Sequence record: MK327934.1
Source of the DNA: Escherichia phage vB_EcoM_G2469
Length of the DNA: 64,000 nt
Strand: one strand, 5' to 3'
Shown here: in pieces, positions 10,027 to 41,896 of the stretch
How positions within the stretch are numbered: the first letter of the stretch is position 1
How the letters are laid out: every line of letters starts with the position of its first letter
Notes under the pieces: generated by a model
Database searches by the model: none
Told to the model about the DNA's origin: nothing
What the model saw: only the letters and a program-made list of their open reading frames with translations
Made by a program: the position numbers and the translations under genes

Positions 10027-10251
10027 TTATACAACTCTCATATGCATATCAATGCCCATATCTTTAGAATAAAAATATTCATCAAGATATCCGGCAAATT
10101 TTCCTTTAATATAAAGGACATCTTCACCACACGGGTGGTCTGCCAGGATACGAATATCCTGACGACGTAGACGATACTTTTCCATTAAGAATTTAATTTC
10201 AGTTTCAAATTCTTCATCATTATTAAAGGCATCTTCAATTGAATAACGCAT
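10027..10251 (-). CDS. hypothetical protein (T4 uvsY.-1-like)
   Basis: 74-aa ORF, ATGA overlap with uvsY stop. Confidence 0.5.
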   Translation of the reverse strand: MRYSIEDAFNNDEEFETEIKFLMEKYRLRRQDIRILADHPCGEDVLYIKGKFAGYLDEYFYSKDMGIDMHMRVV

Positions 10252-10664
10252 TATTGCCCCGCTTCAAATTCTCGCATATCCTGGATATGTTTAAGTGCAA
10301 AACTACGAGACTTAACTGCGTCAAGTGCACCACTACAGAACTCAAGTAAAATTCCCCAGTATTGTAAAGTAGTCTCTATTTTAAGCACATCTTTATCTGC
10401 AGCCAAGACAGTTTTCATTTCAGATTTCTCATATCGGTCCATACTGAATTCATCACCGTCACCTCGTCCCGAGTAGTAGTCTAATCTTGCTTTTAGAGCA
10501 GTTTTCTTCTTAGTCTCTATACGCAACATTTCTTTACGAATAAATGAGTGCTTACGTAGCCATTTGCTGTATAACTTAACATTATTCGCCGTCTCATATT
10601 GCAACTTTGTCATATCAATAGCTAAGTCTGCGTCTAACTCTTCCTGTAAATCTTCCAGCTTCAT
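10251..10664 (-). CDS. uvsY: UvsY recombination mediator
   Basis: 137 aa from internal ATG (MKLEDLQEEL...), matches T4 UvsY length and sequence; track ORF extends upstream from a non-ATG start. Confidence 0.88.
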   Translation of the reverse strand: MKLEDLQEELDADLAIDMTKLQYETANNVKLYSKWLRKHSFIRKEMLRIETKKKTALKARLDYYSGRGDGDEFSMDRYEKSEMKTVLAADKDVLKIETTLQYWGILLEFCSGALDAVKSRSFALKHIQDMREFEAGQ

Positions 10665-27016: not shown

Positions 27017-27073
27017 CTTATTTCCTTGTTGTTTGACGATAGATTAATAATACCATACTATTCGTAAAGCATA

Positions 27074-27382
27074 TTACATAAGAAGCAAACGTTCTACCGG
27101 AGTACCATCAACCGAAATTACTTTATCAAGGCGGAAAGAACGCCACTGACCTAACTTGGTATCGAATGCTCGAACTGATTCACGAGGTTCAGAACGAACT
27201 TCTGTTGCCGGATTGTTATTTTCATATTTGACTTCAAGTTCATCGCGAGAAGCAAACATAGTGCGTACCTCACCGTTAGCCTTTTCAAATACAACACAAT
27301 GAACGCCTACAGACAGAATAGTTTTAATACGTTCACGAAGAACCATAGTTTCTTGTTCAGTTAAAATCATATTATTCACCAC
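27074..27382 (-). CDS. hypothetical protein (102 aa)
   Basis: ORF overlapping cd stop. Confidence 0.5.
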   Translation of the reverse strand: MVNNMILTEQETMVLRERIKTILSVGVHCVVFEKANGEVRTMFASRDELEVKYENNNPATEVRSEPRESVRAFDTKLGQWRSFRLDKVISVDGTPVERLLLM

Positions 27383-27953
27383 AAAAGTTTCGGATTTGTT
27401 CCCAATTCAGAGAACGAAGATTATTACGAGAGTACTGAATTACTTCAATGCCGGCTTGTTTTAGAATGTCTGCCCAATTTTCAGGAGATCTGTCATATAA
27501 TTCTGCGTATACAACCTTTTTAATACCTGACTGCGTAATAGCTTTAGTGCAATCAGGACATGGAGAAAGCGTCGTATACAACGTAGCACCTTCAATAGAA
27601 TTACCTTTACGAGCTGCAAACAAAATTGCATTCAATTCAGCATGGATTTCGTTATTAGCAGACCATGCACTATGAGCGGCCCGATGTTCTTTAGCCAAAA
27701 CAAAATTATCCACCCGTCCAAATGCTGTAGTGCCTTCTTTATGCCCAGCAACGATGACCGGGCTTGGTTTATTCTTCAACCAACCGTTTTCGGATGCATG
27801 TTCGCAACAGTTTGTACCACCTGAAGGAGAGCCATTATACCCTGTAGAAATAATGCGTCCATCTTTTTCAATGACGGCGCCAACTTTCCATGAACAACAT
27901 TTTGATTCTTGAGAAATCAGATAAGCAATCTGAAGATATGTGCTAGCTTTCAT
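27372..27953 (-). CDS. cd: dCMP deaminase
   Basis: 193 aa; zinc-binding HAELNA and PCPDC motifs. Confidence 0.9.
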   Translation of the reverse strand: MKASTYLQIAYLISQESKCCSWKVGAVIEKDGRIISTGYNGSPSGGTNCCEHASENGWLKNKPSPVIVAGHKEGTTAFGRVDNFVLAKEHRAAHSAWSANNEIHAELNAILFAARKGNSIEGATLYTTLSPCPDCTKAITQSGIKKVVYAELYDRSPENWADILKQAGIEVIQYSRNNLRSLNWEQIRNFCGE

Positions 27954-28945
27954 TATTGAACCTTATTAATATAAGTTAACAGCTCTTTAGTTTGTTCCCA
28001 ACTGATGCACGCATCGGTAATGGAAACGCCATAGGACATATTATCAGAAATTTTTTGATTTCCTTCATGTAGGAATGATTCTATCATAATTCCTTTGACC
28101 AAATCATTAGCTGCTAAATTTTTACCAATACCAATTTGATTGCTATAATGCCCAGCAGCGTTTGCATGGCTACAGTCAACCATTACATAATGATTCATAC
28201 CTACTGCACTTGCTTTGTTAGAAGCTTCTTGAATATCAGAAGAATGATAGTTCGGGCCGTTGGTCCCGCCACGCAATACGATATGCGTATTCTGATTACC
28301 TTCAGCTTCAACAATGCCTACAGTACCATCGACGTCCATACCCATATACCGATGAGGCCTGGCGGCACTATACATCGCGTCTGTAGCTACTTTAATAGAA
28401 CCATTGGTTGCGTTCTTGAAGCCTACGCACATCGGTAGACCTGAAGCAATTTCACGATGTGTCTGACTTTCAGTCGTACGGGCGCCAATAGCAACCCATG
28501 AGAAAATACCAGAAAGATACTTAATCGTGAATGGGTCTAATACTTCAGTTGCTAATGGAAGTCCCATACGTAGAAGTTTACGACACAATGTTCGTGCAAC
28601 TATAAGACCGTGGTTCATATCAAAACTTCCGTCAAGATATGGATCATTTACAAGACCTTTCCAACCTACGGTAGTTCGAGGCTTTTCAAAATAAACGCGC
28701 ATCACTAACAGAACATTAGGAAGACGAGTTTGAAGTTCAGCCAGACGTTTGCCGTATTCAACAGCAGCAATAGGGTCATGAATTGAACAAGGACCTACAA
28801 CAATAAGTTTGCGTGGGTCTTCACCGTTCATAATCGAATTAACTTGTTCGCGATGAGAAGCCACTTGTGATGCGTAAGCTTCCGACAAAGGAATAATCTC
28901 AGCCAGTTCTTTTGGAGAAATAAGTTTTCTGACGACAGGTAACAT
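27953..28945 (-). CDS. 3-deoxy-D-arabino-heptulosonate-7-phosphate (DAHP) synthase, class I (AroG/AroF/AroH-like)
   Basis: 330 aa; motifs GPCSIHD, KPRTTVGWKG, GARTTESQTHRE, DCSHANA, IESFLHEGNQ, SITDACI align with E. coli AroG. Confidence 0.85.
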   Translation of the reverse strand: MLPVVRKLISPKELAEIIPLSEAYASQVASHREQVNSIMNGEDPRKLIVVGPCSIHDPIAAVEYGKRLAELQTRLPNVLLVMRVYFEKPRTTVGWKGLVNDPYLDGSFDMNHGLIVARTLCRKLLRMGLPLATEVLDPFTIKYLSGIFSWVAIGARTTESQTHREIASGLPMCVGFKNATNGSIKVATDAMYSAARPHRYMGMDVDGTVGIVEAEGNQNTHIVLRGGTNGPNYHSSDIQEASNKASAVGMNHYVMVDCSHANAAGHYSNQIGIGKNLAANDLVKGIMIESFLHEGNQKISDNMSYGVSITDACISWEQTKELLTYINKVQ

Positions 28946-29065
28946 AACAATCCTTAGGAGATATAAACAGATTCTGATTCAACAATACCTTTAACCGGAT
29001 TAGACAGGCTAAGTTGGTAGTGCTCAGACTTATGACCATTCTCGATAGTAATGAGATAGCTCTCA

Positions 29066-29302
29066 TTATAGTGTTCCATATACTCGAGTTGCTTCAACAA
29101 GACCATCACTGCCTAATTTAAGATTAGTAATTTGGTCACCATCTTTAGGATTAACGATTATGAGAAAAGAACGTGGAGATTCTTGAATAACTCGTAATGT
29201 TGCATCTTGGAAACGTTCAGACACTTTATTGATGAGTGCTTGAGCAAATTCTTTTACTTTAATCTGAAATTCGTGTACTGTAATTGGGTTTTCACTTAGC
29301 AT
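29066..29302 (-). CDS. hypothetical protein (78 aa)
   Basis: ORF. Confidence 0.45.
   Translation of the reverse strand: MLSENPITVHEFQIKVKEFAQALINKVSERFQDATLRVIQESPRSFLIIVNPKDGDQITNLKLGSDGLVEATRVYGTL

Positions 29303-30041: not shown

Positions 30042-30042
<1 letters not shown>
29851..30042 (-). CDS. hypothetical protein (63 aa)
   Basis: ORF, overlap with pseT stop. Confidence 0.4.
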
Positions 30043-31128
<1,086 letters not shown>

Positions 31129-34512: not shown

Positions 34513-35015
34513 TTAGAAATATTTTTTGTATGAATTGATTACATTTTGGTCTACATCATTATCAATTTGTGCGACAAGATAAGAACTGATTTCAACTTCT
34601 TGTGGGGCTGCTTGAACCAAATCAGAGTTCAAATACTCACGAATCCATGGAATAGGATGACGAGTTGATACGTCTTTAAGAGGACATGGCAGACCACAAC
34701 TACGCATACGAGACACGGTAAGATAATCCACAAATTCACTTAGGATTTTAACATTTAGACCTGGAAGAGCACCATCTTTAAACAAGTGTTCAGCCCATTC
34801 TTTTTCTTGAGCGTTAACTTCCATGAAAATATCAACTGCTTCTTGTTCACACTCTTGAGCAATTTTGACCCATTCATCACCGTCTTCGCCATCTTGTAAA
34901 GCACGAATAATATATTGAGTGCCCTTGAGGTGGAGCTGTTCATCACGAGCAATGAACTTCATAATCTTGGCATTACCTTCCATGATTTCCATATTCTTGT
35001 GGAAGTTAAAGGTAC
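34513..35015 (-). CDS. nrdB: ribonucleotide reductase small subunit NrdB, exon 2
   Basis: encodes ...TFNFHKNMEIMEGNAKIMKFIARDEQLH... to C-terminus; second E..H iron motif. Confidence 0.8.
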
Positions 35016-36106
35016 CGTTATGTTCGATTGAGCTCGCTAATTCTCAACCCGTTCTCTTATGAACTGCTACATATTACTATGCAGACCAGACTATATCACA
35101 ATCCCAGAGGGATTCTCCCCATTTCGAGTCGCTTGACCCTACGTCCGAAGACTAGTCGTTGAACCTTGCTTTGCAATTGTCGCCGTGCCATCGTTTATAT
35201 GTTGATGGTGATAAATCTTTCTTATCACAATATGGACAATTCAATTGAATTCTATTTGGATTTAATTTACATCTGTCATTATGTTTTAGATAAAATCCAG
35301 GACCTTTACCAATGTGACCGCAGAAATCACATGTGATTTCTTTTTGTGCAGGATGGGTCCCGTTCTTAACCATTTCTAATGTTTTTGCTGATGTTCTTTT
35401 CTTATGGTCTTCTGACAAGAAATGATGTGAACCGTCATTTACCCGTTTTGATTGAGTTTCTGACTGCATTTTACCACCGCAAAATACATGAGTACCTTCT
35501 TTTATAGCTGCAATATTGCGTTCTTTAACTTTTGCAATATGCTCAGCTTGTTGAAAATTATGTATACCTAATGCAACTCTATTTAAATTAGATTTACGCT
35601 GTATTTCACCGTCTAAAAGATGAAATGTACCATTTTCTATCTTAGATTTAATAGAGGCAATATTTTTAGCTCGTACTTCAGGGATATTAAAAATCTGGAT
35701 TTCTCTAGATTTTGCGGCTTTAGAAGCTAATTCAGAAATTTCTTCAGGAGAATATTTCATTCTAAGCTTTATAGCATGACAAGCCTGGTAATCTTTTTGA
35801 GCTAAATGTATATCATAATGTTCCTGTATAGAAAGGCACATCAAATTATCTAAATCATTATTTTCACGGTTACCGTCTTTATGATGGATTTCGTATGTTC
35901 TTCCATCAGAATCTTTAGGTATAGGTCCGTTAGCATCTATCCAAATTTTTCTATAGTTCAATTGTGCATCCTCTTAAAAGTATAATCATATTTATATTAT
36001 ACTAATTAAAGGTGCAAGCAAAACCTTGGCTGCTAGTTTTCCTATAAAGGACTTTCCAGCAATTAAAGGAGTTTTCGATAAACGTTACCGTTTAAAGGCG
36101 CATTTT
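35016..36106 (-). mobile_element. group I intron in nrdB (about 1091 nt) carrying I-TevIII
   Basis: exon 1 frame stops immediately after ...RFYVSFA; 3' region shares core (TCGAGTCACTTGACCCTAC...GAACATAA(C/T)G) with the td intron; proposed junctions follow 5'-exon U and terminal G rules. Confidence 0.75.
35152..35961 (-). CDS. I-TevIII: I-TevIII HNH homing endonuclease, full length (269 aa)
   Basis: HNH motif EIHHKDGNRENNDLDNL, C-terminal Cys-rich zinc finger; apparent TTG start after AAGAGGA RBS. Confidence 0.85.
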   Translation of the reverse strand: MNYRKIWIDANGPIPKDSDGRTYEIHHKDGNRENNDLDNLMCLSIQEHYDIHLAQKDYQACHAIKLRMKYSPEEISELASKAAKSREIQIFNIPEVRAKNIASIKSKIENGTFHLLDGEIQRKSNLNRVALGIHNFQQAEHIAKVKERNIAAIKEGTHVFCGGKMQSETQSKRVNDGSHHFLSEDHKKRTSAKTLEMVKNGTHPAQKEITCDFCGHIGKGPGFYLKHNDRCKLNPNRIQLNCPYCDKKDLSPSTYKRWHGDNCKARFND

Positions 36107-36782
36107 ACGCAAAAGATACATAAAAACGAATAGCTTCTAAGGCATTAATAACGTGCAAACAGAGGTAAAGAGATTTCATTAGCTCACGCTTCCAATATGT
36201 CTCATGCTCAATAGCATCTTCAATAACGTCTTCGTCTGCATTAATTTCTTTTTGGTATTCGATATCAGCTTTAGCGTTTTCCCAATAACGAGCTTTAACC
36301 AGAACATCATCATAATATCGTCCGATAGATTCGGCACGCTTCATAATAGCTTCATCTAATACAATCTCATCAAACACCTTCGATGGATCTGTATAAAGAT
36401 TTCGCATAATATGAGTATATGAACGAGAGTGAATAGTTTCACTGAAAGTCCATGTAGCAACCCATGTATCTAATGAAGGGTCTGAAAGCAATGACATAAG
36501 TACCGCAGATGGTGCTCTACCTTGGATAGAATCTAATAATGATTGATACTTAAGGTTGTTGGTAAAGATGTCCTGTTGGAACTGTGGAAGCTTATTAAAC
36601 TGGGCCGAATCCAACATCAAGTTTACTTCCTCGGGACGCCAAAAGAACGAGAGCTGCTTTTCGATAAGCTCTTCAAAAACTTTATGACGCTGAATATCAT
36701 ACCGTGCGAGGCCAAGACCAGAACCAAAGAACATCGGTTCATTCAAAACATCGACTTGTTGTGTGTTAAAAACTGTACTCAT
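36107..36782 (-). CDS. nrdB: ribonucleotide reductase small subunit NrdB, exon 1
   Basis: MSTVFNTQQVDVLNEPMFFG...EAIRFYVSFA; class Ia R2 motifs. Confidence 0.85.
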
Positions 36783-36836
36783 TATATTTCTCACTTAGTT
36801 ATTAACTCATCCATGAGTAAATTATAATAAAAAGTC

Positions 36837-39747: not shown

Positions 39748-40763
39748 CATTATGTTCAGATAAGGTCGTTAATCTTATCCCGGAATTATATCCAGCTGCA
39801 TGTCACCATGCAGAGCAGACTATATCTCCAACTTGTTAAAGCAAGTTGTCTATCGTTTCGAGTCACTTGACCCTACTCCCTAAAGGGATAGTCGTTAGGC
39901 ATTTATGTAGAACCAATTCCACTTATCAGATTTTACACGGTAAGTAACTAATCCTGATGAAATTTCAAAATGTCTAGCCGCATCGGCTGCACATTCAAAA
40001 ATAATCCCATCGCATGAAATCTTTTTGATGTTAGCTGGCTTTTTGCCTTTCATCTTTTCAGATAGTTTAGTTTTAGTTTTTTCTGAATGTTTGTGATTAA
40101 AGAACGGGTTATTTTCACCTGAACGTTTTCGGCACTTTCCACAAGTATCGGCCGAAGATGGTATGCGAACACCGCATTTACAAAACTTGTGGTTTTCTGG
40201 ATTCCATCGGCCATTTTTACTTCCGTGTTTACCATAAAGAGCTTTCCGACCATCAGGACCAAGCTTAAGCATCTTAACTTTAACAGTTTCAGCTCGTTTC
40301 TTAGCAATTTCTTCTTTTAATGGATGATTTGAAAGCACATCGCCAAAAGACGCATCAGCAATATTATATCCATTAATTTTAGAATTTAGCTCTTTAATCC
40401 AAAAATTTTCTCGTTCAATAATCAAATCTTTCTCATACGGAATTTCTTCCAGTACAGAGCATTCAAAAACATTACCATGTTTATTAAAAGACCTTTGAAA
40501 TTTTATAGAAGAGTGAACACCGTTTTCAAGGTCTTTAAAATGTCTCTTCCATCTTTTCTCAAAATCTTTAGCACTTCCAACATACACTTTACCGTTTAAA
40601 GTGTTTTTAATCTGATAAATTCCGCTTTTCATAAACACCTCTTTTTATATAGAAGTATTTATTAAAGGGTAGTCCTACAATTTAGCACGGGATTGTCTAC
40701 TAGAGAGGTCCCCCGTTTAGATAGATTACAAGTATAAGTCACCTTATACCTAGGCCTAAATTA
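39748..40763 (-). mobile_element. group I intron in td (1016 nt) carrying I-TevI
   Basis: 5' end TAATTTAGGCCTAGGTATAAGGTGACTTATACTTGTAATCTATCTAAACGGGG and 3' end ...CTGAACATAATG match the T4 td intron; same length as T4. Confidence 0.9.
39895..40632 (-). CDS. I-TevI: I-TevI GIY-YIG homing endonuclease
   Basis: 245 aa MKSGIYQIKNTLNGKVYVGSAKDFEKRWKRHF..., near-identical to T4 I-TevI. Confidence 0.92.
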   Translation of the reverse strand: MKSGIYQIKNTLNGKVYVGSAKDFEKRWKRHFKDLENGVHSSIKFQRSFNKHGNVFECSVLEEIPYEKDLIIERENFWIKELNSKINGYNIADASFGDVLSNHPLKEEIAKKRAETVKVKMLKLGPDGRKALYGKHGSKNGRWNPENHKFCKCGVRIPSSADTCGKCRKRSGENNPFFNHKHSEKTKTKLSEKMKGKKPANIKKISCDGIIFECAADAARHFEISSGLVTYRVKSDKWNWFYINA

Positions 40764-41312
40764 ACCTAAGAAAACATCTACACTGCGTTGATACCATTGT
40801 AAATCAAGATGTCCATTACGCACATTAAATTGATAGAACATATGACAAGGAGGAAGAGCCATTTGGTCAATTTCGGCTGGGTTCCATGCAGAAACTATTT
40901 GACGACGATCATTAGGAAGAGCTTTAATGCGGTCGATAGTTTTGACCAATTGGTCTACACCACCAAAATCACGCCATTGCTTACCATAAATAGGACCAAG
41001 TTCGCCGCTATGATATCCAAGGTCTTTTGCCTGATTTTCATAGTTGTCGTCCCAAATAGTTTTACCTTGAATAAGACTACCATGAGTACGAATACGCAAA
41101 TCATTAACATTGGTAGAACCAGACATGAACCACAGTAACTCGGCAATACAAGCTTTCCATGCTAATTTCTTAGTTGTTACTGCAGGAAATCCTTTAGTAA
41201 GGTCCCAACGTAATTTAGTTCCGAACAGGGCAATAGTGCCGGTACCTGTACGGTCGTCTGTTTCGTAGCCATTTTCTAAGATATCTTTAATCAGGTATTG
41301 GTATTGTTTCAT
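40764..41312 (-). CDS. td: thymidylate synthase, exon 1
   Basis: MKQYQYLIKDILENG...QRSVDVFLG followed directly by intron. Confidence 0.92.
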
Positions 41313-41896
41313 TTATATACGCTCTCAGTAATTTCGGTGAGTTCATCGATTCTGTAGTAATGAGATTCTACCATAGAACGTTGAAGCATAATATCTTGGA
41401 CGAAATCTTTATCAAGTTGAACATCGGAATTAACACGACATTTCTTAATGATTTTAGTCATCACGATTTCATCGGCATAAGGCAGTGCTTGTTTAAGTAG
41501 AGCAGGACCGCCGATAACAGATACATTAACATGTTCAGTAGAAAGTTTAAACGGTACATCAGTTGCAGGGCTAAACAGGTTAATTTCATCACCTGTTACC
41601 AAGGTAATAAATTCTGCTTGGGTGATATAGAACCGTGCAAGTTCATCAGTTTTAGTCCTAGGCAGTTTTCTGGCCATATCAGTGACAACCACATGAGTAC
41701 GATCTGGGAGTAGACGAGGTAATGATTCAAAAGTCTTAGCACCCATAACCATTACAGTGTTTTTAGTGCGAGCAACAAAGTTACTCATATCTTGTTTGAT
41801 ATGCTTCCATGGAAGTCCATCACCTAATCCAAAAGCATATTCCAGTTTATCATCAACCGTTTTAGATGGTGCGCATGCGAATACTAATTTAAGCAT
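41309..41896 (-). CDS. frd: dihydrofolate reductase
   Basis: 195 aa from ATG (MLKLVFACAPSK...), ATGA overlap with td start. Confidence 0.9.
   Translation of the reverse strand: MLKLVFACAPSKTVDDKLEYAFGLGDGLPWKHIKQDMSNFVARTKNTVMVMGAKTFESLPRLLPDRTHVVVTDMARKLPRTKTDELARFYITQAEFITLVTGDEINLFSPATDVPFKLSTEHVNVSVIGGPALLKQALPYADEIVMTKIIKKCRVNSDVQLDKDFVQDIMLQRSMVESHYYRIDELTEITESVYK

What the first reader, a model, noticed from the sequence alone, without database searches (positions are those of the whole stretch)
27953..28945. Phage-encoded class I DAHP synthase inserted in the cd-pseT nucleotide-metabolism block
A 330-aa protein aligns over its full length with E. coli AroG-type DAHP synthase, the committed first step of the shikimate pathway. 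Visible conserved elements include GPCSIHD, KPRTTVGWKG, GARTTESQTHRE, VMVDCSHANAAG, IESFLHEGNQ and SITDACI, which contain the Cys/His/Glu/Asp metal ligands and the PEP-binding residues. In canonical T4 this interval holds only small cd.x ORFs, so this looks like an accessory metabolic gene gained on a T-even backbone. Its codon usage appears AT-rich like the surrounding phage genes, suggesting an old acquisition. It sits in an operon with folate and dNTP genes (frd, td, nrdAB, cd), so the phage may boost chorismate supply for folate (via PABA), aromatic amino acids or another chorismate-derived product. Whether it is feedback-insensitive is unknown. I cannot tell from memory whether homologues are already annotated in other T4-like phages.
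Basis: partly seen in the sequence, partly recalled or inferred. Interest (0 to 1): 0.72.

Follow-up and report, generated by a model that had tools for sequence, protein, structure and literature searches.

The report
Phage DAHP synthase, likely feedback-deregulated
This T4-like coliphage carries an intact copy of the enzyme that commits carbon to aromatic-compound synthesis; the gene is already annotated in hundreds of related phages, but its inhibitor-binding site looks remodelled, so it probably runs unchecked during infection.

Summary
Window 27953-28945 (-) encodes a 330-aa class I-alpha DAHP synthase (Pfam 2e-75; TIGR00034 equivalog 428 bits against a cutoff of 173; 50% identical to E. 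coli AroF, 47% to AroG). All metal, PEP and E4P residues are intact, codon usage is phage-like and dN/dS is about 0.17.

It is not new. The exact protein is GenBank QBO62913.1 (phage vB_EcoM_G2469). Homologues are found in 212 phage records, many of them annotated as this enzyme, PHROG 5045 covers the family, and three papers mention it without any functional test. The gene occupies the same pseT-cd slot in Mosigvirus, Kanagawavirus, Marfavirus, Winklervirus and Bragavirus. T4 lacks it, and so does RB69, which misses a 1.1-kb cassette.

What I add: the phage proteins form one clade (94/100 bootstrap). All members lack the N-terminal segment and have replaced inhibitor-contact residues that are nearly invariant in cellular enzymes (P150I, Q151K, D155G, S180P, F209Y in AroG numbering). 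An unrelated Aeromonas phage lineage changed the same positions.

Best reading: an active, constitutively unregulated DAHP synthase expressed before replication. The end use of the extra chorismate is unresolved. Interest is modest.

The parts
27953..28945 (-). DAHP synthase CDS (330 aa plus stop). Metal ligands C53, H260, E289, D311. PEP/E4P residues R83, K88, R90, T91, R156, K177, R225. Remodelled inhibitor-site residues I141, K142, G146, P171, Y200, A214. Gly202 is the AroF (Tyr)-type residue.
28951..28955 (-). Shine-Dalgarno-like AAGGA, 5 nt upstream of the ATG at 28945
   Evidence: read directly from the sequence
27951..27955 (-). TAATG junction: the DAHPS stop (27955-27953) overlaps the cd start (27953-27951) by 1 nt, so translational coupling is plausible
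27372..27953 (-). cd, dCMP deaminase, immediately downstream and co-oriented
   Evidence: PF00383, 1.7e-26
28954..29106 (-). 50-aa ORF with weak similarity to the C-terminal half of DUF7320 (cd.2-like); part of the cassette absent from RB69
27957..29056 (-). About 1.1-kb cassette (small ORF plus DAHPS) present here and absent from RB69. RB69 aligns up to 29057 and again from 27956, with a 13-bp overlap between the two alignments.
29066..29302 (-). cd.2 homologue (DUF7320), upstream neighbour
30042..30941 (-). pseT polynucleotide kinase/phosphatase, upstream boundary of the slot
30325..30349 (-). Nearest upstream match to a T4 middle-promoter (MotA box plus -10) pattern. It is a candidate promoter only.
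   Evidence: 10 matches, all on the minus strand, against 2.1 expected; no minus-strand terminator-like site between it and DAHPS

Best explanation
The gene encodes a catalytically competent class I-alpha DAHP synthase (PEP + erythrose-4-phosphate -> DAHP + Pi; Cys/His/Glu/Asp metal site). It descends from an AroF-like (Tyr-type) ancestor and was captured long ago by T4-like enterobacterial phages. It is probably transcribed with pseT and cd in the pre-replicative (early/middle) programme and translationally coupled to cd.

The phage clade has lost the canonical aromatic-amino-acid feedback site. The first ~9 residues are deleted, and the residues that hold the inhibitor's main chain or give feedback-resistant mutants in AroG/AroF are replaced. 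So the enzyme most likely keeps carbon flowing into the host shikimate pathway (host AroB to AroC) whatever the Phe/Tyr/Trp levels and after host gene expression is shut off.

Shown here: family membership, intact catalytic residues, purifying selection, clade-specific remodelling of the inhibitor site, synteny and distribution.

Inferred: activity (about 0.9), insensitivity to Tyr/Phe/Trp (about 0.65), expression timing (about 0.6).

Unresolved: which chorismate-derived product matters (aromatic amino acids, PABA/folate, quinones).
For: Family: PF00793 2.2e-75; TIGR00034 equivalog and PRK12755 both above cutoff; PHROG 5045 5e-181; AroF 6agm 1.2e-104.

Catalysis: AroG-numbered C61, R92, K97, R99, T100, R165, K186, R234, H268, E302 and D326 are invariant in all 30 phage-clade and 98 cellular sequences.

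Selection: dN/dS is 0.15-0.26, and 0.17 for the least saturated pair. Codon usage is phage-like, and the gene's GC tracks each host phage's GC.

Deregulation:
- All 30 phage-clade proteins have 8-12 residues before AroG P19, against 16-53 in cellular ones, and lack the D/E/N-D/N pair at AroG positions 6/7.
- Only 13 of 329 positions are fixed clade differences. Five of them hit the 12 literature-documented feedback positions (P150, Q151, D155, S180, F209; hypergeometric p=2.8e-5).
- AroG P150L is fully Phe-resistant and S180F and F209A/S are resistant. Q151/Q152 and S180/S181 bind the inhibitor main chain, and D155 forms a stabilising salt bridge (PMC9529685).
- Deleting AroF Ile11 gives a feedback-resistant enzyme (PMC10729320).

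Convergence: an independent Aeromonas-phage lineage has A150, H/S151, P155, P180 and V209 with catalytic residues intact, while 98 of 113 of its cellular neighbours keep P-Q-D/E-S-F-T.

Rationale: DAHPS is the flux-controlling, feedback-inhibited first step of the pathway (PMC9529685 and PMC10729320).

Expression: RBS, stop/start overlap with cd, MotA-box candidate upstream, and no intervening terminator.
Against: No enzyme assay, complementation, transcript or proteome data were found or could be run.

The remodelled pocket is more conserved within the phage clade (0.90) than the rest of the protein (0.73). That fits a pocket still doing something, whether structural or binding a different ligand, better than a simply decayed site.

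The substitutions here (Q->K, S->P, P->I) are not the tested mutations, so resistance is an extrapolation.

The role of AroG Asp6/Asp7 is recalled from the AroG-Phe structure paper, not verified here.

RB69 does well without the gene, so the benefit is conditional.

The cellular comparison set is the top 98-113 hits of a capped search, not all DAHP synthases, and a few cellular enzymes also deviate at these sites.
Confidence: 0.6

Rival explanations
1. An ordinary, still feedback-regulated isozyme. The phage simply adds more AroF-like activity, and Tyr (or Phe/Trp) still inhibits it through a slightly different set of contacts.
For: Gly at AroG position 211 and Pro at 147 are the AroF (Tyr-type) states. 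The pocket region is highly conserved within the phage clade. The beta6a/6b region aligns without gaps.
Against: Q151, S180, F209 and D155 are at least 98% invariant in cellular enzymes of all three specificities and are all replaced. The N-terminal segment is missing. Mutations at these positions abolish inhibition, and so does removing AroF Ile11 in the N-terminal segment.
Confidence: 0.2
2. A carbon-flux valve rather than an aromatic-compound supplier. By irreversibly consuming erythrose-4-P (and PEP), an unregulated DAHPS pulls the transketolase/transaldolase reactions towards pentose phosphates, supporting nucleotide synthesis or the arabinose-nucleotide supply for hmC arabinosylation.
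For: The gene sits among nucleotide-metabolism genes and is coupled to cd. The genera that carry it also carry all or part of the RB69-type sugar module between gp43 and uvsX (PMC8056088).
Against: RB69, the phage in which ara-hmC was demonstrated, lacks the gene. Acinetobacter phages have the isomerase but essentially no DAHPS, and Klebsiella phage F48 has DAHPS but no isomerase, so the overlap looks phylogenetic. There is no biochemical evidence, and each turnover costs a PEP.
Confidence: 0.1
3. The remodelled pocket binds a different effector (for example a nucleotide, chorismate/prephenate or a phage-made metabolite), so the enzyme is re-wired rather than deregulated.
For: DPFTIKYL and GLPM are invariant or nearly so (at least 28 of 30 sequences) across proteins that are otherwise only 57-67% identical. 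Pocket conservation is 0.90 against 0.73 for the rest of the protein.
Against: No candidate ligand is known. The region also lies near subunit interfaces (recalled from the AroG structure), so the conservation may be structural. The second phage lineage uses different replacement residues.
Confidence: 0.08
4. An inactive remnant or pseudo-enzyme, or host DNA contaminating the assembly.
For: None beyond the absence of experimental data.
Against: All catalytic residues are conserved and dN/dS is about 0.17. 139 near-identical phage genomes carry the full pseT-DAHPS-cd interval. Codon usage is phage-like.
Confidence: 0.02

Closest known systems
E. coli AroF (Tyr-sensitive DAHP synthase, PDB 6AGM/6AGL)
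   Same: 50.5% identity over the full length. Same metal ligands and PEP/E4P residues. Pro at AroF position 148 and Gly at 212 (the Tyr-type state) are shared.
   Different: Nine N-terminal residues and about 9 C-terminal residues are missing, and there are two short internal deletions. AroF P151, Q152, D156, S181 and F210 are replaced by I, K, G, P and Y.
E. coli AroG (Phe-sensitive) and AroH (Trp-sensitive)
   Same: Same family and catalytic machinery; 47.1% and 43.3% identity.
   Different: The scores are below the AroG- and AroH-specific NCBIfam cutoffs (365 against 568, and 386 against 463). The inhibitor-site residues differ as above.
Engineered feedback-resistant DAHP synthases (AroG P150L, S180F, F209A/S, D146N; AroF delta-Ile11)
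   Same: The same positions or segment are altered in the natural phage enzyme.
   Different: The substituted residues are different, several changes are combined, and no inhibition data exist for the phage protein.
PHROG 5045 and annotated DAHP synthases of Mosigvirus, Kanagawavirus, Marfavirus, Winklervirus and Bragavirus
   Same: It is a member of this group: E=5e-181 to the PHROG, and 99.7% nucleotide identity to annotated genes. The exact protein is QBO62913.1.
   Different: Nothing. In the source record it is labelled 'hypothetical protein', while UniRef and sister genomes name it.
Aeromonas phage HJ05-type DAHP synthase
   Same: Phage-borne, catalytic residues intact, and the same inhibitor-site positions replaced.
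   Different: Only 37% identical, with a long N-terminus (387 aa), a different genomic context (79-kb phage, next to an Acb2/Tad1-like gene), and a separate origin.

Membership tests
Class I-alpha DAHP synthase (AroF/G/H family, EC 2.5.1.54) | Full-length match to the curated family models above their cutoffs | tested here: met
   PF00793 253.5 bits against 25.5. TIGR00034 equivalog 428.4 against 173.2, and NF009395 456.7 against 343.
Class I-alpha DAHP synthase (AroF/G/H family, EC 2.5.1.54) | Metal ligands Cys61, His268, Glu302, Asp326 (AroG numbering) | tested here: met
   C53, H260, E289 and D311; invariant in all 129 aligned sequences.
Class I-alpha DAHP synthase (AroF/G/H family, EC 2.5.1.54) | KPRT motif and PEP/E4P-binding Arg/Lys residues (R92, K97, R99, T100, R165, K186, R234) | tested here: met
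   All are present and invariant. The motif is KPRTT, the DAHPS form; the contrast with the KDO8P synthase motif is recalled from memory.
Class I-alpha DAHP synthase (AroF/G/H family, EC 2.5.1.54) | I-alpha decorations that build the allosteric site: the N-terminal extension and the beta6a/6b insertion | tested here: inconclusive
   The beta6a/6b region aligns without gaps, but the N-terminal extension is shortened to 8-12 residues in every phage sequence.
Class I-alpha DAHP synthase (AroF/G/H family, EC 2.5.1.54) | Catalysis of PEP + E4P -> DAHP | not testable with these tools
   Needs an enzyme assay or complementation.
Feedback-inhibited isozyme subtypes (AroG Phe, AroF Tyr, AroH Trp) | Subtype-specific model score above cutoff | tested here: not met
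   AroG model 365.3 against 568, and AroH model 385.6 against 463.
Feedback-inhibited isozyme subtypes (AroG Phe, AroF Tyr, AroH Trp) | Conserved inhibitor-contact residues (P150, Q151, D155, S180, F209) and the N-terminal acidic/Asn pair | tested here: not met
   Replaced by I, K, G, P and Y, and the N-terminal pair is deleted, in all 30 phage-clade sequences (P0022 keeps P150 and P0020 has R151). These residues are 90-100% conserved in the 98 cellular sequences.
Phage auxiliary metabolic gene | A metabolic gene of cellular type stably carried in phage genomes, with phage-like composition and under selection | tested here: met
   212 phage records; synteny in 5 genera; RSCU r=0.88 with phage genes; dN/dS about 0.17.

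The most novel reading that the evidence does not exclude
The phage enzyme is not primarily an aromatic-amino-acid supplier. Its conserved, remodelled pocket would respond to a non-aromatic effector, and its real job would be to couple central carbon flow to phage DNA chemistry. It could do this by draining erythrose-4-P to push pentose and arabinose phosphate supply for nucleotides and hmC glycosylation, or by providing DAHP as a precursor of a still-unidentified ulosonic-acid-type modification.
Probability: 0.07. Interest if true: 0.75.

Novelty: already known. Interest (0 to 1): 0.33.

Why it matters
As a gene, it adds nothing. It is deposited, named and grouped in PHROGs, and several papers list it as an auxiliary metabolic gene of unknown role.

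What remains of value is a concrete, cheap hypothesis. T4-like enterobacterial phages carry a natural feedback-deregulated DAHP synthase, and a second phage lineage reached the same solution independently. If confirmed, it would be a clear coliphage example of a virus overriding allosteric control at the committed step of a biosynthetic pathway. It would also raise the question of which chorismate product limits phage yield in the gut, and it would provide a natural feedback-resistant enzyme scaffold for aromatic-compound bioproduction.

Tried and rejected
1. Link to hmC arabinosylation. The carrier genera overlap with carriers of the RB69 sugar module, but RB69 lacks DAHPS, Acinetobacter phages have the isomerase without DAHPS, and Klebsiella phage F48 has DAHPS without the isomerase. 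I rejected this as an obligatory association.

2. Pathway partner next door. The small ORFs between DAHPS and cd in Serratia X20 and Proteus PM2, and other neighbours, have no chorismate mutase or other shikimate domain.

3. Cellular donor. No cellular protein exceeds about 55% identity, and the sister group in the NJ tree is the whole cellular sample, so the donor cannot be named.

4. P0022 as a bacterial 'intermediate'. It lies on T4-like phage contigs.

5. Generic sigma-70 promoter and terminator scan. The count equals the shuffle expectation, so it is uninformative.

6. Literature. Ten searches found annotation-level mentions only and no experiment on a phage DAHPS. The primary papers on the AroG-Phe structure and AroF N-terminal mutants are not held.

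7. Structure prediction was not run. With 50% identity over the full length to solved structures, the fold is not in doubt, and the tool returns no pocket geometry.

Full report
**1. What is there**

The window has an ORF at 27953..28945 on the minus strand, 330 aa with an ATG start. An AAGGA ribosome-binding site lies 5 nt upstream. The TAA stop shares one base with the ATG of the next gene (TAATG).

The neighbours are:
- dCMP deaminase cd (27372-27953) immediately downstream
- a 50-aa ORF, then cd.2 (DUF7320), cd.3 (DUF7355), two small ORFs and pseT (30042-30941) upstream
- further upstream on the same strand, denA, rnlA and alc by homology to phage JK45, then nrdB, nrdA, td and frd

**2. 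Family assignment**

| Model or structure | Result |
|---|---|
| Pfam DAHP_synth_1 | E=2.2e-75 |
| NCBIfam TIGR00034 (aroFGH equivalog) | 428 bits, cutoff 173 |
| NCBIfam NF009395 | 457 bits, cutoff 343 |
| NCBIfam AroG-specific model | 365 bits, cutoff 568 (fails) |
| NCBIfam AroH-specific model | 386 bits, cutoff 463 (fails) |
| PHROG 5045 (auxiliary metabolic gene category) | E=5e-181 |
| E. coli AroF structure 6agm | E=1e-104, residues 7-327 |

Identity is 50.5% to AroF, 47.1% to AroG and 43.3% to AroH.

I aligned the protein with AroG/F/H and five phage orthologues, then in a 129-sequence set. The metal ligands (AroG C61, H268, E302, D326; here C53, H260, E289, D311) are invariant. So are the PEP/E4P residues (R92, K97, R99, T100, R165, K186, R234).

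**3. It is already known**

Megablast finds the gene in 145 phage records, 110 of them at 99% identity or more. The annotations read 'phospho-2-dehydro-3-deoxyheptonate aldolase', 'DAHP synthase class 1', 'AroG' or 'aroF'. tblastn finds 212 records.

The exact protein is GenBank QBO62913.1 of Escherichia phage vB_EcoM_G2469. It is labelled hypothetical there and named by UniRef, and it sits in a 164-member 90% cluster.

Three papers mention the gene at annotation level only:
- bioRxiv 10.1101/2020.01.19.911818 lists a DAHP synthase in Mosigvirus among candidate auxiliary metabolic genes of unknown function.
- PMC8022965 notes the domain in phiC120.
- PMC11845039 notes it in a Klebsiella Kanagawavirus and suggests aromatic amino-acid supply.

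Ten literature searches found no experimental work on any phage DAHP synthase.

**4. Distribution and history**

The gene lies in the same pseT-cd slot in these phages:

| Genus | Phage |
|---|---|
| Mosigvirus-type coliphage | JK45 |
| Marfavirus | Klebsiella F48 |
| Kanagawavirus | Enterobacter Entb_45, Edwardsiella PEi26 |
| Winklervirus | Serratia X20 |
| Bragavirus | Proteus PM2 |
| (metagenomic) | T4-like contigs |

Among close relatives of the window, 139 records carry the whole pseT-DAHPS-cd interval. T4 and other Tequatrovirus records match only pseT.

RB69 lacks the gene: cd abuts cd.2. RB69 aligns with the window up to 29057 and again from 27956, with 13 bp shared by both alignments. 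The difference is therefore a ~1.1-kb cassette made of the 50-aa cd.2-like ORF plus DAHPS. Because the gene is present at this site in other genera, loss in the RB69 lineage is the more economical reading.

Codon usage is phage-like: RSCU r=0.88 with the window's other genes and 0.23 with E. coli aroFGH, with GC3 of 0.293 against a phage mean of 0.283. In each phage the gene's GC follows that phage's GC, from 0.325 in Proteus PM2 to 0.448 in Klebsiella F48. dN/dS between genera is 0.15-0.26, and 0.17 for the least saturated pair.

In a search of 5.8 billion proteins, the phage-type proteins (56-98% identity, 319-343 aa) are followed directly by cellular enzymes of 55% identity or less and 341-385 aa. 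The phage clade is monophyletic in 94 of 100 NJ bootstraps, with no identifiable donor.

**5. The new point: the inhibitor site**

Every one of the 30 phage-clade sequences has only 8-12 residues before the position of AroG Pro19. Cellular enzymes have 16-53 residues there, and the phage sequences lack the acidic/Asn pair at AroG positions 6/7.

An unbiased scan found only 13 of 329 aligned positions where the phage clade is at least 90% one residue and that residue occurs in 5% or less of cellular sequences:

| AroG position | Cellular residue (frequency) | Phage residue |
|---|---|---|
| 150 | P (0.90) | I |
| 151 | Q (1.00) | K |
| 155 | D (0.98) | G |
| 180 | S (0.99) | P |
| 209 | F (1.00) | Y |
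| 223 | T (1.00) | A |
| 39, 130, 134, 144, 156, 157, 160 | less conserved (0.31-0.74) | H, C, L, V, I, F, V |

Five of the 13 fall among the 12 feedback-relevant positions listed in PMC9529685. About 0.47 would be expected by chance (p=2.8e-5).

That paper reports the following:
- AroG P150L and D146N are fully Phe-resistant.
- S180F, L175D, L179A, F209A/S and V221A are resistant.
- Q151/Q152 and S180/S181 hold the inhibitor's main chain.
- D155 makes a stabilising salt bridge.

PMC10729320 reports that deleting AroF Ile11 gives a feedback-resistant enzyme, and that DAHPS is the rate-limiting first step of the pathway. The Gly at AroG position 211 and the Pro at 147 show the ancestor was AroF-like.

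A second, unrelated phage lineage supports the pattern. Aeromonas phage HJ05 and three metagenomic relatives are 37% identical to the window protein and 46% or less to any cellular hit. They keep all catalytic residues but have A150, H/S151, P155, P180 and V209. Of their 113 cellular neighbours, 98 keep P-Q-D/E-S-F-T.

Caveats:
- The phage substitutions are not the mutations that were tested.
- The pocket is more conserved in the phage clade than the rest of the protein (0.90 against 0.73). That could mean a structural role or a new ligand.
- The comparison sets are capped hit lists.
- My statement about AroG Asp6/Asp7 contacting bound Phe is from memory.

**6. Expression**

A generic sigma-70 scan is uninformative (16 sites against 16.0 expected). 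A MotA-box middle-promoter pattern gives 10 matches, all on the minus strand, against 2.1 expected. The nearest one upstream of DAHPS is inside pseT at 30349-30325. No terminator-like site on the minus strand intervenes. Pre-replicative expression together with cd is therefore likely, but it is inferred.

**7. Function**

The best-supported mechanism is an active DAHP synthase that ignores aromatic amino-acid feedback. It would keep the host shikimate pathway supplied during infection. One gene would suffice because this step controls flux.

I could not decide the end use:
- No other shikimate, folate or chorismate-utilising gene lies nearby.
- The folate idea rests only on loose proximity to frd and td.
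- I tested and set aside an obligatory tie to hmC arabinosylation. RB69 has ara-hmC but not the gene. Acinetobacter phages have the arabinose-5-P isomerase homologue without DAHPS. Klebsiella phage F48 has DAHPS without the isomerase.
- An E4P-sink role, or a re-purposed regulatory pocket, remains possible but is unsupported.

**8. Verdict**

The residual interest is the sequence-based prediction of a natural, convergently evolved, feedback-deregulated phage enzyme, which simple biochemistry can test. Novelty: already known. Interest: 0.33.

Noticed in passing
window 39895-41312 (-): td appears interrupted. Thymidylate synthase exon 1 (40761-41312, matching Pfam positions 1-175 of 266) is followed by a GIY-YIG / I-TevI-like homing endonuclease ORF (39895-40638). 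This is consistent with a td group I intron as in T4.
   Followed up: partly
window 34513-36794 (-): nrdB is split into two ORFs (36105-36794 and 34513-34992) with an HNH endonuclease ORF (35152-35961) between them. JK45 annotates the equivalent ORF as an intron-like endonuclease.
   Followed up: partly
window 28954-29106 (-): A 50-aa ORF just upstream of DAHPS overlaps the 3' end of cd.2 in another frame. It weakly matches the C-terminal half of DUF7320 (28.8 bits against a cutoff of 27), so it may be a diverged partial duplicate of cd.2. It belongs to the cassette missing in RB69.
   Followed up: partly
L011 (RB69) 10243-10255 versus window 27956 and 29057: The two RB69/window alignments overlap by 13 bp at the stop/start junctions. 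This suggests the cassette was lost (or gained) by recombination at short repeats at gene boundaries.
   Followed up: partly
L010 (Aeromonas phage HJ05) 5196-5543: The gene immediately downstream of the HJ05 DAHP synthase has an Acb2/Tad1 hairpin domain (E=8.5e-17), as found in anti-CBASS/anti-Thoeris nucleotide sponges. Both genes are annotated as hypothetical.
   Followed up: no
window, whole: All 10 matches to the MotA-box middle-promoter pattern are on the minus strand (2.1 expected by chance). They include sites upstream of gene 31 (27047-27071) and inside frd (41365-41388, just upstream of td). No tRNA genes were found in the 64 kb.
   Followed up: partly
L001 (Shigella phage JK45, NC_054940.1): The record's taxonomy line says Tequatrovirus. 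However, its pseT-DAHPS-cd region is 99.6% identical to Mosigvirus-type phages, and T4-type phages lack the gene, so it may be misclassified.
   Followed up: no
cluster of P0001/P0243/P0244: Several identical proteins are deposited as '[Escherichia coli]' on contigs of about 170 kb. These are probably phage genomes co-assembled in bacterial isolates and labelled as host.
   Followed up: no
L016 (Klebsiella phage F48) 39741-45408: Between DNA polymerase and uvsX, F48 carries a 554-aa hypothetical protein, a 'phosphoheptose isomerase', a thymidylate kinase-like gene, a peptidase and a thymidylate synthase-like gene. It has no SIS isomerase. This is a partial version of the RB69 putative arabinose-nucleotide module, and the DNA modification it makes is unknown.
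   Followed up: no
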